Virus record (IMG/VR): IMGVR_UViG_3300027759_003166
DNA from: a virus
Lineage: Duplodnaviria > Caudoviricetes
Length of the DNA stretch: 64,000 nt
Reading direction: 5' to 3' (one strand)
Notes under the pieces: model-generated
Seen by the model: the letters and a program-made list of their open reading frames with translations, nothing else
Databases searched by the model: none
Told to the model about the DNA's origin: nothing
Program-made: the position numbers and the translations under genes
Shown: positions 46,947-53,134 of the stretch, in pieces
Numbering within the stretch: position 1 is the first letter of the stretch
Layout: each line of letters starts with the position of its first letter

Positions 46947-47032
46947 ATATAGAAACACACTGATGTCCTGTAGCTTTAACAGGCCCTAGACTTTTTCAAG
47001 TCTCGCAGTCACACTTCAATGTATTTTTATAT
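46947..47032 (-). ncRNA. long-stem element IIa
   Basis: 17-bp imperfect terminal inverted repeat, G-U pairs on minus strand. Confidence 0.5.
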
Positions 47033-47033
47033 A

Positions 47034-47156
47034 CCATATTAAAACATACTCCCAACAAGTGTCTTACGCTTGTTGTACCGTGTGCTATGCACATTCTCCG
47101 TATCAAAGGACTCCCTCGGGTTAGGGCAACATAGACGAAAGTATGTTTTAATATGG
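47034..47156 (-). ncRNA. long-stem element IIb
   Basis: Perfect 17-bp inverted repeat ccatattaaaacatact/agtatgttttaatatgg with three internal hairpins. Confidence 0.55.
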
Positions 47157-47239
47157 TGCGACTGGCCGGACTCGAACCGGCACGCCCAAGAGCGAGGGAT
47201 TTTAAATCCCTTGCGGCTACCAAATTACGCCACAGTCGC
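47154..47239 (-). tRNA. tRNA-Leu(UAA)
   Basis: Class II cloverleaf, loop UUUAAAA, CCA. Confidence 0.92.
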
Positions 47240-47322
47240 AAAATACTTTTTAACTTTTAAAGAACAGTGTTAATTGCTTAACGTATGCATATAGTATAAC
47301 ATCATTTACTCTATGTGTCAAG

Positions 47323-47396
47323 TGGTTCTCCTAACAAGAATCGAACTTGTAATTGCACTTTACCGAAGTGCTGGTATGCCATTTACCTATAGGAGA
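47323..47396 (-). tRNA. tRNA-Thr(GGU)
   Basis: Loop UCGGUAA (C at 33), CCA. Confidence 0.8.
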
Positions 47397-47400
47397 GTAT

Positions 47401-47475
47401 TGGCGGGCCTTGAGAGGATCGAACTCCCACCCTCGGTTTCGAAGACCGAGATGATATCCATTTCACCAAAGGCCC
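47401..47475 (-). tRNA. tRNA-Arg(UCG)
   Basis: Loop CUUCGAA, CCA. Confidence 0.9.
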
Positions 47476-47551
47476 TGGTGGTAGAGGTGGGACTCGAACC
47501 CACGATCTTTTCCGTATGAAGGAACTGCATTAGCCGCTATGCTACTCTACC
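47476..47551 (-). tRNA. tRNA(CAU), Met or Ile2
   Basis: Loop UUCAUAC, CCA; abuts tRNA-Arg. Confidence 0.85.
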
Positions 47552-47554
47552 ATA

Positions 47555-48217
47555 TTATTTTCTAATACAAATTAGATCACTTTCACCAAAGGGATGCGGA
47601 TCTCTTGTTTTAAGAAATTCTGTTTCAAACCCTTGTTGATGGATCCATGATTCAAGATCACTTTTTGGAGCGTGACCCTTATAGTAAGGTTTTAATGCAG
47701 CTTCTGTATGCATTAGTTTAACATCATCGATGAATTTCCCCATACCTTGCAATGCTTTTAATTCATTACCTTGTACATCCATCCAAACAGCATCTACCTT
47801 ATCGACACCAATTTCTGTTAAAACATCATCTATACGTCTTGCTCTAATGCCGGATAATTTTTGAAAGGTACATGGTCTGTGTCCATTCTGCCATCCTGCA
47901 TCTAAGAAATCCTCTGCTGGTTCTAAAATAGAGGATGCACCAACATTTTCATTAACTATCCAAAAATCTACAATATCTTCTTTATCATTACAGGCATATT
48001 CATATACCTCAATGTTAGGATAATTTTTTCCTGCTGCTACACAAATAGGAAACTGATTAGGATTTGGTTCAAATGCAATTATTCTAGTATTAGGAAATGC
48101 CTCAGACATCTGTACACTTTCTTCTAGGTCTCTGCTACCTACATCTAAAATAACTTGTGGGCCTTGATTTCCATAAATTTCTTTTAGTTGTTCTATAAAA
48201 TCACCTGCTACTGCCAT
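47555..48217 (-). CDS. FkbM family methyltransferase
   Basis: LDVGS, AFEPNP, WMDVQGNELKALQG. Confidence 0.85.
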   Translation of the reverse strand: MAVAGDFIEQLKEIYGNQGPQVILDVGSRDLEESVQMSEAFPNTRIIAFEPNPNQFPICVAAGKNYPNIEVYEYACNDKEDIVDFWIVNENVGASSILEPAEDFLDAGWQNGHRPCTFQKLSGIRARRIDDVLTEIGVDKVDAVWMDVQGNELKALQGMGKFIDDVKLMHTEAALKPYYKGHAPKSDLESWIHQQGFETEFLKTRDPHPFGESDLICIRK

Positions 48218-48289
48218 AATATTTCTCCATTAAAAGTTTATTATACTGGATATTATTTAATAGTCAACCGTTATCATAGACTGGGTAAT

Positions 48290-48365
48290 TGGTGCAACCT
48301 CCAGGGATCGAACCTGGGACGCCAAACTCTTCAGGCTTGCGCTCTACCAACTGAGCTAAGGTTGC
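48290..48365 (-). tRNA. tRNA-Phe(GAA)
   Basis: Loop CUGAAGA, CCA. Confidence 0.93.
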
Positions 48366-48386
48366 AAATTATGTTAGAGAAACAAT

Positions 48387-49007
48387 CTATGCTCTTATAA
48401 GTTTAAAAAATTGATTATCACCGCTATTATGACATCCATCAAAAATAAAATGAGTATTCCAATCACCGATGCGATGACTTACATGTCTATACATTGGGTG
48501 CATATCATAATTGTCTCTATAAGGACAAAGATTTTCTCTATTAATTGCTTCAATAAATTGAAATAAGTATTTTTTAGGAAACGCATATAATGCATCTCCT
48601 ACAAACCGATCATTGGTCCAAAATGGTTCAATTTCTTTAAAAAGGAAATTAAATTTATTATAGTCTATATTCCAAGTGTTAACTGGAGTATTGAAATGAA
48701 TATCATATCTAGTAGCAATAATAAAATCTAAATCTTCGTAGATCAATTCTTCCATACTACGCTTATAGGTAGTACGAATCTGACTTCCTTGATATGGGAT
48801 AATAACAGCCTTAGATGCATTGTAATGCTCTATCATTCCTGTTAGTTCAGGATGTGGATATGTTGTGAGATAAACCCCTGCATTAGGAATAACATTAATA
48901 AGTTTTTCTTTTATGTTATCTTTTGCCAGCTTCCAATCTCGATCAGCTTTGGCTGTTCCTACTGCCTGTCCCCACGCGGCACCTGTTAATACTATTCCTA
49001 TTTTCAT
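48387..49007 (-). CDS. glycan-related hypothetical protein (divergent GQPRF family)
   Basis: MKIGIVLTG..DFIIATRYD..GDALY. Confidence 0.55.
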   Translation of the reverse strand: MKIGIVLTGAAWGQAVGTAKADRDWKLAKDNIKEKLINVIPNAGVYLTTYPHPELTGMIEHYNASKAVIIPYQGSQIRTTYKRSMEELIYEDLDFIIATRYDIHFNTPVNTWNIDYNKFNFLFKEIEPFWTNDRFVGDALYAFPKKYLFQFIEAINRENLCPYRDNYDMHPMYRHVSHRIGDWNTHFIFDGCHNSGDNQFFKLIRA

Positions 49008-49019
49008 TTATGTTTAATC

Positions 49020-49095
49020 TGGAGCGGGTGATCGGAGTCGAACCGACGACAATCACGTTGGCAACGTGGCGCTCTACCAGCTGAGCTACACCCGC
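49020..49095 (-). tRNA. tRNA-Gly(GCC)
   Basis: Loop UUGCCAA, U73, CCA. Confidence 0.93.
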
Positions 49096-49118
49096 ATAAT
49101 TTTATTTACTATCTTAGT

Positions 49119-49196
49119 TGGAGTGCCGGGTCGGATTTGAACCGACGGTTTGACAGTTTTGCAGACTGTTGCGTTGGGCCTCTCCGCCACCGACAC
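49119..49196 (-). tRNA. tRNA-Cys(GCA)
   Basis: Loop CUGCAAA, U73, CCA. Confidence 0.92.
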
Positions 49197-49203
49197 ACTT
49201 ATT

Positions 49204-49278
49204 TGGCGGGCCGCCTAGGACTCGAACCCAGACTTAACAGATTTGGAATCTGCGGTGCAGCCATTACACTAACGACCC
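49204..49278 (-). tRNA. tRNA-Trp(CCA)
   Basis: Loop UUCCAAA, G73, CCA. Confidence 0.9.
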
Positions 49279-51896: not shown

Positions 51897-51991
51897 GTCG
51901 TTCTCCTTTTAAAGTTTTCTCATAATAAAATACAGAGCACAAAATATAATTACTATCAATAGTAAGACCATAATATGCTCCTTGGTGTGGT

Positions 51992-52066
51992 TGGCAGGGA
52001 CTGAAGGTAACGCTCCTTCTCACCCAGTTTCAAAGACTGGTATCTGCTCTTATCGATTTAATCCCT
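51992..52066 (-). tRNA. atypical tRNA-Gln(UUG)
   Basis: Loop CUUUGAA, CCA; non-canonical T-loop AGCGUUA and D-loop. Confidence 0.65.
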
Positions 52067-52162
52067 ATGTTATCTAACTCTTGTTTTGTTAATACAGATA
52101 TTTTTAATTCCGGATGTTGAGTTATTTCCCCTGCCAAACAACACAATGCCCCAACAATAAAA

Positions 52163-52217
52163 CAGGATGCTTATTTTTCAATTAAAAGTTGAATTTAAAA
52201 TTTGCTGTTCGCATCCT
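52163..52217 (-). ncRNA. ACAGCAA hairpin element D (carries Lys-type anticodon stem-loop)
   Basis: AGGAUGC-GAACAGCAA...GCAUCCUG; inner UUCAA-CUUUUAA-UUGAA. Confidence 0.6.
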
Positions 52218-52222
52218 AAAAG

Positions 52223-52297
52223 TGGCTCCCTCGGGAAGGATCGAACTTCCGACCAATTGGTTAACAGCCAACTGCTCTACCTCTGAGCTACAAGGGA
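52223..52297 (-). tRNA. tRNA-Asn(GUU)
   Basis: Loop CUGUUAA, G73, CCA. Confidence 0.93.
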
Positions 52298-52305
52298 ATA
52301 ATAAA

Positions 52306-52516
52306 TTTGTAAGTAGTTCCGCCCATATTATCGGAACCATTCACCTTATTATACAAGGCCGGCAAGGTCTCGGTACGTTACTTGGGAGTCCTCCAAATGA
52401 TACGCCAATTGTATACTAGTCTTCCGACCAGCCGGGCATCGAACCCGCATCCTTTTACTGTTTCAGTTGTTCGAACGAACCTAGACAGCGTGACTTCTCT
52501 TGCTAACACTTACAAA
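52306..52516 (-). ncRNA. about 210-nt multi-hairpin RNA candidate with internal T-arm
   Basis: 9-bp terminal inverted repeat tttgtaagt/acttacaaa; GCGGG-UUCGAUG-CCCG; several further hairpins. Confidence 0.45.
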
Positions 52517-52519
52517 ACT

Positions 52520-52594
52520 TGGAGTCGCATACGGGTTTCGATCCCGTCTAGTCACCTTGAAAGGGTGATGACCTCGCCAGAAGTCTAATGCGAC
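52520..52594 (-). tRNA. tRNA-Glu(UUC)
   Basis: Loop CUUUCAA, CCA. Confidence 0.88.
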
Positions 52595-52603
52595 ATAATA
52601 AAA

Positions 52604-52662
52604 CAGGATAGCATTTTTTTTCATTAACGTTGAAAGTTTTTTGAGTTTGCTGTTGCTATCCT
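52604..52662 (-). ncRNA. ACAGCAA hairpin element E
   Basis: AGGAUAGC-AACAGCAA...GCUAUCCUG; inner UUUCA-ACGUUAA-UGAAA. Confidence 0.6.
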
Positions 52663-52721
52663 AAAACTTGGTGGATAACAGATGCCGACCGTAAGGTATA
52701 AGCACCCGCTTCTCCATAATT

Positions 52722-52798
52722 TGGCGCCCCGGACGGGAATCGAACCCGTGACCTCAACCGTGACAGGGTTGCGTGATAAACCGCTACACTACCGGAGC
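52722..52798 (-). tRNA. tRNA-Asp(GUC)
   Basis: Loop CUGUCAC, G73, CCA. Confidence 0.93.
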
Positions 52799-52804
52799 TA
52801 AACT

Positions 52805-52880
52805 TGGTGGAGGATAACGGATTCGAACCGTTTGCTCCTGGTTGCAAACCAGGTGTGTTAGCCAAGTATACCAATCCCCC
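52805..52880 (-). tRNA. tRNA-Ala(UGC)
   Basis: G3-U70, loop UUUGCAA, CCA. Confidence 0.88.
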
Positions 52881-52885
52881 GAATA

Positions 52886-52971
52886 TGGTGGAGGCGGATG
52901 GATTCGAACCACCGTGCTTTTTACGGGCAAGATTTACAGTCTTGTGCAATCAACCTCTCTGCCACGCCTCC
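52886..52971 (-). tRNA. tRNA-Tyr(GUA)
   Basis: Class II, loop CUGUAAA, CCA. Confidence 0.93.
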
Positions 52972-52979
52972 AAAATTGT

Positions 52980-53134
52980 TACACACTCCCGCTACGCTTT
53001 TTGACGCGATTCAAAGTCGCGAAAGAGAATGTGTATATTAAAACATACTAATGAAATTGCACTACCTCAGTTTCACGCTGAGTTACCAGTAGTCACGGAG
53101 GCATTGTCCTCCTGCAAATAGTATGCTTTAATAT
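52980..53134 (-). ncRNA. long-stem elements IIe (52980-53036, imperfect) and IIf (53035-53134)
   Basis: IIf 16-bp inverted repeat atattaaaacatacta/tagtatgctttaatat (G-U on minus strand). Confidence 0.5.

What the first reader, a model, noticed from the sequence alone, without database searches (positions are those of the whole stretch)
46947..53134. Second unexplained repeat family: paired long AU-rich stems enclosing unrelated multi-hairpin cores
Seen: six elements in three back-to-back pairs (46947-47032 with 47034-47156; 51483-51575 with 51580-51660; 52980-53036 with 53035-53134). Five have 16-18-bp terminal inverted repeats resembling ATAT(A/T)(A/G)AAA(C/T)A(C/T)A, while IIe is shorter and imperfect. 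The 40-90-nt interiors share no sequence but fold into GC-richer hairpins. Imperfect pairs are mostly G-U on the minus (transcribed) strand. In IIb and IId the stem begins with the encoded CCA of the upstream tRNA. Inference: a cassette of small RNAs released by a double-strand-specific nuclease (RNase III-like), each with a different payload such as anti-defence decoys, or structures controlling tRNA 3' maturation.
Basis: partly seen in the sequence, partly recalled or inferred. Interest (0 to 1): 0.7.

Follow-up and report, generated by a model that had tools for sequence, protein, structure and literature searches.

The report
Stem-clamped RNA cassettes between phage tRNAs
Six small hairpin-closed RNA genes sit among this lake phage's tRNA genes; they belong to a large, undescribed family in which a nearly invariant AU-rich closing stem, anchored on the CCA end of the preceding tRNA, holds a structured insert that related phages swap like cassettes, and what the inserts do is unknown.

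Summary
All six elements exist at the stated coordinates on the tRNA (minus) strand. The arm motif is about 8-fold over chance. Each element folds as a long terminal stem plus a 2-3-hairpin core.

They are not private repeats. At least 120 IMG/VR phage contigs and the cultured cyanophage BUCT-ZZ01 carry the same design, almost always inside tRNA arrays.

- **Stem:** 16-17 bp plus 3 bp with the upstream tRNA's CCA. Consensus is 5' (ACC)AUAUAAAAACACAUU / 3' AGUGUGUUUCUAUAU(GGU). Covariation and a G·U bias on the tRNA-sense strand support pairing as RNA.
- **Interior:** 283 copies fall into 177 unrelated classes, and three window classes show compensatory changes.
- **Mobility:** near-identical phages keep flanks and arms but carry different interiors. 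There is an empty-versus-occupied slot and no target-site duplication.

Best reading (about 0.5): co-transcribed small RNAs excised at tRNA processing sites, capped by a stabilising clamp, whose arms also serve as cassette-exchange joints.

RNase III involvement is untested, and five relatives encode none. A Ro60-fold gene adjoins the array, but four complete element-bearing genomes lack it.

Closest known: T4 rnaC/rnaD.

The scan noted a larger tRNA-array RNA family on another genome (e1-5337221). A follow-up report that overlaps or touches this stretch exists but was withheld.

The parts
46947..47032 (-). IIa: 86-nt cassette. 17-bp closing stem with one A·C and two U·G pairs; core of two hairpins plus the conserved unpaired run GUGUGACUGCG. 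Followed 8 nt later by tRNA-Arg(tct).
   Evidence: Three orthologues in other tRNA contexts; 9 of 33 pairs show compensatory change.
47033..47157 (-). IIb: 125-nt cassette. Perfect 18-bp stem whose first 4 nt are the ACCA of tRNA-Leu(taa); core of 3-4 hairpins.
   Evidence: (I3). Four orthologues; 6 of 40 pairs compensatory. The terminal pairs switch from ACCAUAU/AUAUGGU to ACUUUAU/AUAAAGU where no tRNA precedes.
51479..51579 (-). IIc: cassette with a perfect 17-bp motif stem (51483-51575). Ends flush with G-1 of tRNA-His.
   Evidence: (I4). Three orthologues; 8 of 31 pairs compensatory.
51579..51661 (-). IId: cassette whose 20-bp stem starts with the ACCA of tRNA-Lys(ttt); A·C mismatch at stem position 6.
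   Evidence: (I2). A copy with 98% identical interior lies in L132 between another cassette and tRNA-Met, with unrelated flanks.
52980..53035 (-). IIe: short, imperfect variant. Stem AUACACAUUCUC/GGGAGUGUGU lacks the AAAA run. 8 nt upstream of tRNA-Tyr.
   Evidence: z = -4.3. No orthologue found among 200 loci. The weakest member.
53035..53134 (-). IIf: 100-nt cassette with a 16-bp stem containing one G·U. First RNA after the leader and promoter region of the array.
   Evidence: An orthologue with 90% identical interior lies in L004 between tRNA-Glu and tRNA-Phe.
47154..47239 (-). tRNA-Leu(taa), whose encoded ACCA is the outer part of the IIb stem.
51658..51732 (-). tRNA-Lys(ttt), whose encoded ACCA is the outer part of the IId stem. 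This is the commonest upstream partner family-wide (64 of 141 flush cases).
51406..51481 (-). tRNA-His, which starts directly after the IIc 3' arm.
46864..46938 (-). tRNA-Arg(tct), 8 nt after IIa.
52886..52971 (-). tRNA-Tyr, 8 nt after IIe.
53501..53529 (-). Sigma-70-like promoter (12/12 match) reading towards IIf, IIe and tRNA-Tyr.
   Evidence: consensus match only
47293..47321 (-). Sigma-70-like promoter (11/12 match) reading into tRNA-Leu(taa), IIb, IIa and tRNA-Arg.
   Evidence: consensus match only

Best explanation
The six elements are genes for small structured RNAs that are transcribed together with the phage tRNAs (minus strand here) as part of the pre-tRNA transcripts.

**Architecture.** Each consists of two parts.
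- A closing helix of 16-17 AU-rich base pairs of conserved sequence. It is extended by 3 pairs between the upstream tRNA's discriminator-C-C and a UGG/GGU at the far end.
- A 40-90-nt, GC-richer, folded payload.

**Proposed release.** The helix starts at the A of CCA and usually ends at, or a few nucleotides before, the first nucleotide of the next tRNA. Ordinary tRNA end-processing would therefore release each element as a hairpin-closed RNA. That means RNase P at the 3' boundary and an endonucleolytic cut right after CCA at the 5' boundary, by a host RNase E-type or double-strand-specific enzyme. The released RNA would have almost no single-stranded ends, so it should resist exonucleases and present its payload.

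**Exchange.** The conserved arms double as the DNA joints at which related phages exchange payloads.

**Shown:** the family, its anchoring on tRNA ends, stem and payload covariation, strand bias, and cassette replacement.

**Inferred:** excision, stability, the enzymes involved, and any payload function. About 12-15% of payload classes look like tRNA T-arm mimics; the rest are unknown.
For: **Reality and structure.**
- Motif enrichment and folds.
- Among 165 class representatives, stem position 5 is A-U in 83, U-A in 78 and G-C in 4. That is 100% paired against 49% in shuffles.
- Position 16 is 85% paired with five pair types, against 49% in shuffles.
- Positions -1 to -3 (pairing with CCA) exceed all 500 shuffles.
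- Pairing falls to chance at position 18.

**RNA level, tRNA-sense strand.**
- 122 G·U against 17 A·C in the arms.
- Arm asymmetry is oriented with the tRNA strand in all 152 distinct copies.

**Tie to tRNA ends.**
- In 105 cases, by far the commonest spacing, the motif starts at the A of the upstream CCA. In 53 cases it ends flush with the next tRNA.
- Where no tRNA precedes, the terminal pairs change on both sides, from ACCAUAU/AUAUGGU to ACUUUAU/AUAAAGU.

**Payloads are selected RNAs.**
- Compensatory changes occur in the interior hairpins of the IIa, IIb and IIc classes, while the unpaired run GUGUGACUGCG stays invariant.
- Interior GC is 49%, against 40% for the loci.
- A T-loop motif abuts the 3' arm in about 21 of 177 classes.

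**Cassette behaviour.**
- In unbiased loci the Lys(ttt)-to-Met slot has arms 90% identical, tRNA-Lys 84% identical and interiors 49% identical. In the larger slot set, interiors (48%) equal shuffled interiors (48%).
- 29 of 56 multi-member classes lie between different tRNA species.
- L098 and L175 have flanks 99-100% identical and arms identical, but unrelated interiors.

**Co-transcription.** Strong minus-strand promoters lie upstream, and no predicted terminator lies between a promoter and its cassettes.

**RNA libraries (weak).** Contigs from RNA libraries of three studies cover IIa, IId plus tRNA-Lys, and IIe plus tRNA-Tyr.

**Precedents.**
- T4 has tRNA-Arg followed by the stable RNAs rnaD and rnaC back to back.
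- E. coli RNase E cuts exactly after CCA to remove a downstream hairpin (PMC5291269, abstract seen).
Against: - No read-level evidence for discrete RNAs or their ends. The RNA-library data are assembled contigs, mostly from relatives, and DNA carry-over cannot be excluded.
- Interiors taken alone fold only slightly better than shuffles (mean z = -0.46).
- The conserved sequence of the arms, as opposed to their pairing, is not explained by a clamp role. It may reflect a binding protein or concerted evolution by recombination.
- No processing enzyme has been identified.
- No payload function is known.
- IIe has no relatives in the sample.
Confidence: 0.5

Rival explanations
1. Purely cis-acting processing or insulator stems. 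The helix sequesters the CCA end and juxtaposes the 3' end of one tRNA with the 5' end of the next. A host double-strand-specific nuclease (RNase III or Mini-III) or RNase E can then separate the tRNAs cleanly. The interior is only a stuffer that keeps the palindrome stable in DNA.
For: - The stem is anchored on CCA and on the next tRNA's 5' end.
- In relatives and in BUCT-ZZ01, real tRNAs sit inside comparable leader-trailer stems. Examples are tRNA-His and tRNA-Ser in a Felixounavirus.
- Interiors at one slot are as dissimilar as random sequence.
- Interior folding z-scores are modest.
Against: - Interior classes are conserved across unrelated contexts, with compensatory changes and invariant unpaired runs.
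- Interiors are GC-enriched.
- Many tRNA junctions in the same arrays work with 1-8-nt spacers and no stem.
- No phage RNase III was found in five relatives.
Confidence: 0.2
2. Y-RNA-like partners of the phage Ro60-like protein encoded next to the array (42766-44187). The conserved stem is the Ro-binding helix, and the variable module tethers different effectors or substrates.
For: - The 473-aa ORF has the Ro60 fold. The AlphaFold2 model has pLDDT 93, and the 13 best PDB matches are all Ro60/TROVE, with E = 5e-9 to 6e-7. It also has a DxSxS MIDAS motif.
- The gene lies directly downstream of the array, as it does in cyanophage BUCT-ZZ01 and next to the tRNA array of a Felixounavirus.
- Y RNAs are 80-130 nt with a terminal stem plus a variable module, and several occur per genome (PMC4201824).
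- A phage Ro60 binds two adjacent Y-like RNAs (PMC12135203).
Against: - Four element-bearing phage genomes rated 100% complete have no DUF7788 (PF25043) or TROVE (PF05731) match, and none to the window's DUF2828/DUF7788 protein itself. The positive control rang for the protein and DUF7788 searches; TROVE did not ring even in the Ro-bearing control contig, so that search is not informative for this divergent family.
- No Rfam Y_RNA or YrlA match, even at E <= 10 for pair 1 and E <= 5 for pairs 2 and 3.
- The stem sequence is unlike known Ro-binding helices.
- None of the six window payloads has a T-arm.
Confidence: 0.1
3. Selfish or recombination-driven DNA elements, akin to REPINs, MITEs or integron attC sites, that spread in tRNA arrays. 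The RNA structure is incidental, and the arms are conserved because they are the substrate of a recombinase, a homing nuclease or homologous exchange.
For: - Presence/absence and replacement polymorphism with breakpoints in the arms.
- The same interior lies in unrelated flanks in 135 of 197 same-class pairs.
- The arms are at least as conserved as the neighbouring tRNA gene.
- Another note on this genome (e1-5363941, unverified) reports a DNA-conserved junction used for module shuffling.
Against: - No target-site duplication at the empty-versus-occupied site.
- Interiors are not conserved among copies, unlike MITEs and REPINs.
- The strong sense-strand G·U bias and the exact registration with CCA and the tRNA 5' end point to selection on the transcript.
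- No attC core sites, and no integrase was seen in the array ORFs. Those ORFs are FkbM methyltransferases, an HExxH protein and one unknown.
Confidence: 0.1
4. Decayed tRNA genes: pseudo-tRNAs that were once enclosed by leader-trailer stems and now drift.
For: - T-loop motifs lie next to the 3' arm in 12-15% of classes.
- Real tRNAs sit inside similar stems.
- A truncated tRNA-Arg remnant lies in L003.
Against: - Most payloads, including all six in the window, have no tRNA feature and are shorter than a tRNA (median interior 50 nt).
- Payload classes are conserved with compensatory changes.
- ARAGORN and Rfam find no tRNA in them.
Confidence: 0.05

Closest known systems
Phage T4 stable RNAs rnaC and rnaD (species 1 and species 2)
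   Same: - Small stable RNAs of unknown function inside the tRNA cluster of a T4-type phage.
- They lie back to back directly after a tRNA. tRNA-Arg is followed 1 nt later by rnaD, and rnaC follows 6 nt after that.
- rnaC carries a T-arm (CCGGGUUCGAAUCCCGG) next to its 3' terminal strand, as do about 12-15% of the payload classes here.
   Different: - T4 rnaC and rnaD have no 16-20-bp AU-rich closing helix of conserved sequence, and no pairing with the upstream CCA.
- They are single conserved genes, not a hypervariable cassette series.
Y RNAs with Ro60 (bacterial YrlA/YrlB; Thermus phage phiLo Yrl1/Yrl2)
   Same: - 80-130-nt RNAs with a stem formed by the 5' and 3' ends plus a variable module.
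- Several per genome, encoded next to a Ro60 gene, and some are tRNA-like (PMC4201824, PMC12135203).
- A Ro60-fold gene adjoins this array.
   Different: - No Rfam match.
- A different stem sequence.
- The elements persist in complete phage genomes that lack any Ro-like gene.
Small RNAs and hairpins derived from tRNA operon spacers and trailers. Examples are the E. coli 3'ETS-leuZ sponge (from my own knowledge) and the proline-tRNA terminator hairpins removed by RNase E exactly at CCA (PMC5291269).
   Same: - RNA segments of tRNA transcripts, bounded by tRNA processing sites.
- A hairpin begins at or near CCA and is cut off in one endonucleolytic step.
   Different: - Those are single, locus-specific sequences or plain terminators.
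- Here there is a family-wide conserved clamp with exchangeable structured payloads and no U-tract.
Integron attC sites, REPINs and MITEs
   Same: - Imperfect inverted repeats of conserved sequence around a variable centre, 57-141 bp in attC sites.
- A conserved mismatch.
- Cassette-wise replacement between close relatives.
   Different: - No attC core sites and no integrase.
- No target-site duplication.
- Interiors are not conserved among copies.
- The strand bias and tRNA-end registration indicate selection on RNA.
rRNA-operon processing stems cut by RNase III
   Same: A long helix, formed by sequences flanking a stable RNA, marks the excision points within a polycistronic stable-RNA transcript.
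   Different: - The helix here is 16-20 bp and AU-rich, and one conserved sequence is reused many times per array.
- Cleavage by RNase III is untested.

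Membership tests
Y RNA / YrlA (Rfam RF00019, RF02553) | Match to the family covariance model. | tested here: not met
   No Y_RNA or YrlA hit at the gathering threshold, at E <= 10 for pair 1, or at E <= 5 for pairs 2 and 3.
Y RNA / YrlA (Rfam RF00019, RF02553) | Terminal stem formed by the 5' and 3' ends, plus an internal variable module, total length 80-130 nt. 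| tested here: met
Y RNA / YrlA (Rfam RF00019, RF02553) | Obligate co-occurrence with, and binding to, a Ro60 protein. | tested here: not met
   A Ro60-fold gene adjoins the array here. However, four element-bearing genomes rated 100% complete lack DUF7788 (PF25043) and the window's DUF2828/DUF7788 protein, with positive controls; the TROVE search also found nothing but missed the control contig. Binding itself is not testable with these tools.
Y RNA / YrlA (Rfam RF00019, RF02553) | tRNA-like domain (T-arm with the GNCGAA motif). | tested here: not met
   None of the six window payloads has it. About 12-15% of payload classes elsewhere do.
MITE | Terminal inverted repeats. | tested here: met
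MITE | Target-site duplication flanking insertions. | tested here: not met
   The empty site reads ACCA-GUUUAU-GGUG and the occupied site reads ACCA-UAUAAAAAC...CUAUAU-GGUG, with no duplication.
MITE | Copies share their internal sequence. | tested here: not met
   177 interior classes among 283 copies; slot interiors are at the identity of shuffled sequence.
Integron attC site | R''/L''-L'/R' core sites (RYYYAAC ... GTTRRRY) and a nearby IntI integrase. | tested here: not met
   The arm consensus AUAUAAAAACACAUU / AGUGUGUUUCUAUAU has no such cores. The ORFs inside the array are methyltransferases, an HExxH protein and one unknown. A whole-genome integrase search was not done.
RNase III processing stem | About two turns (>= 20 bp) of double-stranded RNA flanking a stable RNA. 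| tested here: inconclusive
   16-17 bp plus 3 bp with CCA, often interrupted by an A·C mismatch at position 6.
RNase III processing stem | Staggered cleavage by RNase III. | not testable with these tools
   No RNase III gene in five related phage contigs, so a host enzyme would be required.
T4 rnaC/rnaD-type stable RNAs of tRNA clusters | Small non-tRNA RNA genes placed directly after a tRNA inside a T4-type tRNA cluster. | tested here: met
T4 rnaC/rnaD-type stable RNAs of tRNA clusters | Shared structure with rnaC or rnaD. | tested here: not met
   The T4 RNAs fold without a long AU-rich closing stem, and rnaD ends in its own CCA. No direct sequence alignment was made.
tRNA (pseudo-tRNA) | Cloverleaf recognised by ARAGORN or Rfam RF00005. 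| tested here: not met

The most novel reading that the evidence does not exclude
The family is a dedicated small-RNA cassette system, in effect an 'integron for RNAs' built into phage tRNA operons.

- One conserved helix serves as excision signal, stability clamp and recombination joint.
- The helix lets freshwater T4-like phages trade a library of well over a hundred distinct structured payloads. These might be tRNA mimics, decoys or sponges against host tRNA-targeting or RNA-sensing defences.
- The payloads are expressed at tRNA-like levels.
Probability: 0.25. Interest if true: 0.9.

Novelty: new variant of a known kind. Interest (0 to 1): 0.72.

Why it matters
Phage tRNA arrays are usually read as codon-supply or anti-defence tRNA sets. 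The only known non-tRNA residents, T4 species 1 and species 2 RNAs, have had no function for fifty years.

This work shows a large phage-borne family of structured RNAs built on one reusable clamp.
- It occurs in at least 120 viral contigs and one cultured cyanophage.
- It has at least 177 payload classes.
- It is absent from Rfam and from the papers I could search.

The arms are anchored on tRNA ends and are swapped between near-identical genomes. This gives a concrete, testable model for three things:
- how phages make and stabilise small RNAs without their own promoters or terminators;
- how they shuffle such RNAs;
- possibly, what the T4 stable RNAs are relatives of.

The clamp is also a natural analogue of the engineered tRNA-scaffold trick for expressing RNAs. 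Because phage BUCT-ZZ01 and its host Synechococcus elongatus PCC 7942 are in culture, the key experiments are ordinary ones.

Tried and rejected
- **Rfam.** Searches at the gathering threshold and at permissive E-values found only tRNAs and chance-level hits.
- **Cultured-phage DNA search.** A megablast of the region against 50,697 phage records matched only tRNA fragments.
- **Whole genome.** None is held for this window.
- **Ro60 partner idea.** I first favoured it. It was downgraded after four complete element-bearing genomes proved to lack any Ro-like gene.
- **Phage-encoded RNase III.** None found in five relatives.
- **Metatranscriptome contigs.**
  - Parts of the ORFs inside the array (47944-48167, 48392-48839, 50632-50855) had no cover in four RNA runs, while tRNAs and elements had cover. 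With contigs this is no evidence either way.
  - One 99%-identical RNA contig stops at 51484, the boundary between tRNA-His and IIc. This is suggestive only.
- **Interior folding.** Interior-only z-scores are weak.
- **Shared payload motif.** K-mer enrichment found only the T-loop motif and a minor ACAUAGU loop motif.
- **Anticodon-nuclease decoy idea.** It was prompted by Lys(UUU), Glu(UUC) and Gln(UUG) being the commonest upstream tRNAs. No anticodon-loop-like motif is enriched, and the counts largely reflect one conserved Lys-to-Met synteny block.
- **Promoter or terminator role of the arms.** No predicted site coincides with them. The resemblance of TATAAAAA to the T4 late promoter TATAAATA, which I recalled from memory, is imperfect and variable.
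- **Cellular origin.** The same pattern in 596 Gb of prokaryote genomes gave about 90 hits without tRNAs in AT-rich genomes, which are chance. It also gave about 9 tRNA-array contigs in freshwater MAG bins, probably mis-binned phage.
- **Literature.** Seven searches found no description of the family.
- **Not done.** Complex prediction was not used because it takes no RNA. No covariance model was built because the interiors cannot be aligned.

Full report
**Setting.** The window comes from an uncultured freshwater phage.
- Its own Ro-like protein is recorded on a 213,787-bp contig.
- DNA holders are lake and freshwater metagenomes of several studies.
- The cultured-phage collection has no close relative.
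- Twenty-eight tRNA genes lie on the minus strand between 44531 and 52971.
- Six strong sigma-70-like promoters lie on the same strand. One is at 53529-53501, upstream of IIf. Another is at 47321-47293, upstream of tRNA-Leu(taa), IIb and IIa. No predicted terminator lies between a promoter and its cassettes.

**Check of the observation.**
- All six elements are present as described.
- The arm motif occurs 11 times against 1.34 expected, and 10 of the 11 hits are the arms of five elements.
- Three arm pairs are found independently as 17-20-nt inverted repeats.
- On the minus strand each element folds into a terminal stem enclosing two or three hairpins, with z between -3.9 and -6.1.
- Rfam has nothing for them.

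**The family is large and phage-borne.**
- Together with 80 loci fetched through the neighbouring Ro-like gene, the 201 sequences hold 2,836 tRNA genes. They also hold 283 non-overlapping elements, with a median length of 82 nt.
- The same pattern in 596 Gb of prokaryote genomes gave about 90 tRNA-less chance hits. It also gave about nine tRNA-array contigs in freshwater MAG bins.
- The cultured cyanophage BUCT-ZZ01 (host Synechococcus elongatus PCC 7942) has the same design. Its tRNA-Lys(ttt) is followed by two back-to-back stem-closed elements and then tRNA-Met. Two further copies lie elsewhere in its array.

**Anatomy.** Oriented by the tRNA strand, the consensus is 5' (ACC)AUAUAAAAACACAUU ... 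AGUGUGUUUCUAUAU(GGU) 3'.
- Among 165 payload-class representatives, stem position 5 is A-U in 83, U-A in 78 and G-C in 4. It is always paired, against 49% in partner shuffles.
- Position 16 is 85% paired with five pair types.
- The three pairs outside the motif, which involve the discriminator and CC of the upstream tRNA, exceed all 500 shuffles.
- Pairing drops to chance at position 18.
- Position 6 is an A·C mismatch in 59% of 152 distinct copies, and position 14 is U·G in 71%.
- Outside those two positions the arms hold 122 G·U but only 17 A·C. The asymmetry follows the tRNA strand in all 152 distinct copies. Selection therefore acts on the sense transcript.
- In 105 cases, by far the commonest spacing, the first A of the motif is the A of the upstream CCA. 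In 53 cases the last U abuts the first nucleotide of the next tRNA.
- Where an orthologous element is not preceded by a tRNA, the outer pairs change on both sides, from ACCAUAU/AUAUGGU to ACUUUAU/AUAAAGU.

**Payloads.**
- The 283 interiors fall into 177 classes.
- Their GC content is 49%, against 40% for the loci. Alone they fold only slightly better than shuffles, with mean z = -0.46.
- The only strongly enriched motif is a T-loop (GGUUCGAAUCC and variants). It occurs in about 12-15% of classes, mostly directly before the 3' arm, as in a tRNA.
- Five of the six window elements have orthologues in other contigs, all in different tRNA contexts.
- For IIa, IIb and IIc the alignments show 9 of 33, 6 of 40 and 8 of 31 pairs with compensatory changes. 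These include interior hairpins, while unpaired runs such as GUGUGACUGCG stay invariant.

**Cassette behaviour.**
- In loci not selected by the arm pattern, 17 of 18 tRNA-Lys(ttt) genes are followed by a stem-closed element.
- In the nine distinct Lys-to-Met slots of 60-110 nt, the arms are 90% identical, tRNA-Lys is 84% identical and the interiors are 49% identical. In the larger set of 21 slots, interiors are 48% identical, the same as shuffled interiors.
- Of 56 classes with at least two members, 29 lie between different tRNA species.
- Of 197 same-class pairs, 135 share neither flank.
- L098 and L175 are the clearest case. Their tRNA-Gln and tRNA-Lys flanks are 99-100% identical and their arms are identical, but their interiors are unrelated. 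The next slot is empty in one (ACCA-GUUUAU-GGUG) and holds a 74-nt element in the other, with no target-site duplication.
- The interval from tRNA-Leu(taa) to tRNA-Arg(tct), which holds IIb and IIa here, is 1 nt in some relatives. In others it holds a tRNA, other cassettes or an ORF.

**How it most likely works.** The registration with CCA and with the next tRNA's 5' end means that tRNA maturation alone would excise each element.
- RNase P would define its 3' end.
- A cut just after CCA would define its 5' end. There is precedent for this in E. coli proline tRNAs (PMC5291269, abstract seen).
- The product would be closed by a 15-16-bp helix with about one unpaired 3' nucleotide, which is a poor substrate for 3' exonucleases (inference).
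- The conserved arms also provide short identical DNA segments at which payloads are exchanged. This is shown as an outcome; homologous recombination as the mechanism is inferred.
- I put this reading at about 0.5.

**Rivals.**
- The helix may be only a cis-acting processing or insulating device (0.2). Leader-trailer stems around true tRNAs favour this. Payload conservation argues against it.
- The Ro60 idea was attractive.
  - The neighbouring 473-aa ORF (DUF2828 plus DUF7788) is a Ro60-fold protein.
  - Its homologues sit beside tRNA arrays in a Felixounavirus and a cyanophage.
  - However, four complete element-bearing genomes lack any such gene, with a ringing positive control for the protein and DUF7788 searches.
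  - An earlier, unverified note assigns another repeat family to the Ro-like protein. I put this rival at 0.1.
- A purely selfish DNA element (0.1) fits the mobility, but not the strand bias or the missing target-site duplications.
- Decayed tRNAs (0.05) fit only the T-arm classes.

**Comparison with the known.**
- T4 has the same layout, with tRNA-Arg followed by rnaD and then rnaC. rnaC has a T-arm next to its 3' strand, but neither RNA has the long AU-rich clamp.
- Y RNAs, tRNA-spacer small RNAs, rRNA processing stems and integron attC sites each share one aspect. Each fails at least one defining feature; see the membership table.
- I found no description in Rfam or in seven literature searches.

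**Verdict.** I class it as a new variant of the little-understood stable RNAs of phage tRNA clusters. Its unprecedented feature is a reusable clamp with swappable payloads.

Noticed in passing
window 42766-44187 (-): A 473-aa ORF annotated only as DUF2828/DUF7788 has the Ro60 (TROVE plus vWA/MIDAS) fold. The AlphaFold2 model has pLDDT 93, and the top 13 PDB matches are all Ro60. Homologues occur in 710 cultured-phage records, and in the two cultured phages examined (Felixounavirus garuso, cyanophage BUCT-ZZ01) the gene lies next to the tRNA array.
   Followed up: yes
L008:912-1009, L017, L029 and L039 (sub-region coordinates); L201:1850-1953; L202:15990-16103: In relatives and in BUCT-ZZ01, tRNA-His is enclosed by a 12-14-bp leader-trailer stem (UAGACUUAUUAG...CUAAUAAGUUUA) with compensatory changes. 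tRNA-Ser of E. coli phage garuso has a look-alike (AAGUCUUAUUAG...CUAAUAAGAUUU).
   Followed up: partly
window 51733-51870 (-): A sequence upstream of tRNA-Lys(ctt) (UAGACCCCCGUAUGGUCC) pairs with the 3' end of tRNA-Lys(ctt), the spacer and the 5' end of tRNA-Lys(ttt). The pairing is kept by compensatory changes in about ten related loci. It may be an alternative pre-tRNA structure.
   Followed up: no
L019, L025, L039, L044, L053 and L063; L027, L044 and L074 after tRNA-Lys: Longer stem-closed elements of 125-225 nt have other arm sequences (for example UACCAUUAAUUGUUAG... and UAAGAAUGACAAUUAG...). They also start at the ACCA of a tRNA. They may correspond to the 155-245-nt tRNA-array RNA family noted on another genome (e1-5337221).
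   Followed up: no
L202:14557-14700 and L202:16254-16351: Felixounavirus garuso (host E. coli) has 27-bp and 33-bp stem-closed elements directly upstream of tRNA-Lys and tRNA-Leu, in the array next to its Ro-like gene. Their arm sequences are unrelated to those here.
   Followed up: no
window 50319-51056 (-), 47555-48217 (-), 49428-50087 (-), 48387-49007 (-): ORFs interleaved with the tRNAs. One is a 245-aa protein with an HExxH motif (AHELRHA) and weak metallopeptidase hits. Two are FkbM-type methyltransferases. One is a 206-aa protein with no family.
   Followed up: partly
window 53182-53300: This stretch has the highest summed contig depth of the region in RNA-library contigs. It lies between the promoter at 53529 and IIf, where earlier notes of this scan place a leader-peptide attenuator (e1-5363962).
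   Followed up: no
window 61608-62819 (+): A 403-aa ORF matches the RuBisCO large-chain catalytic domain (PF00016, E = 1e-36).
   Followed up: no
L003:4735-4790: A truncated copy of the 5' part of tRNA-Arg(tct) lies between a cassette and a different, intact tRNA-Arg(tct). It looks like a scar of rearrangement in the array.
   Followed up: no
window 12369-15617 (-): A 1,082-aa tail-fibre protein with collagen repeats and a C-terminal S74 intramolecular chaperone domain.
   Followed up: no
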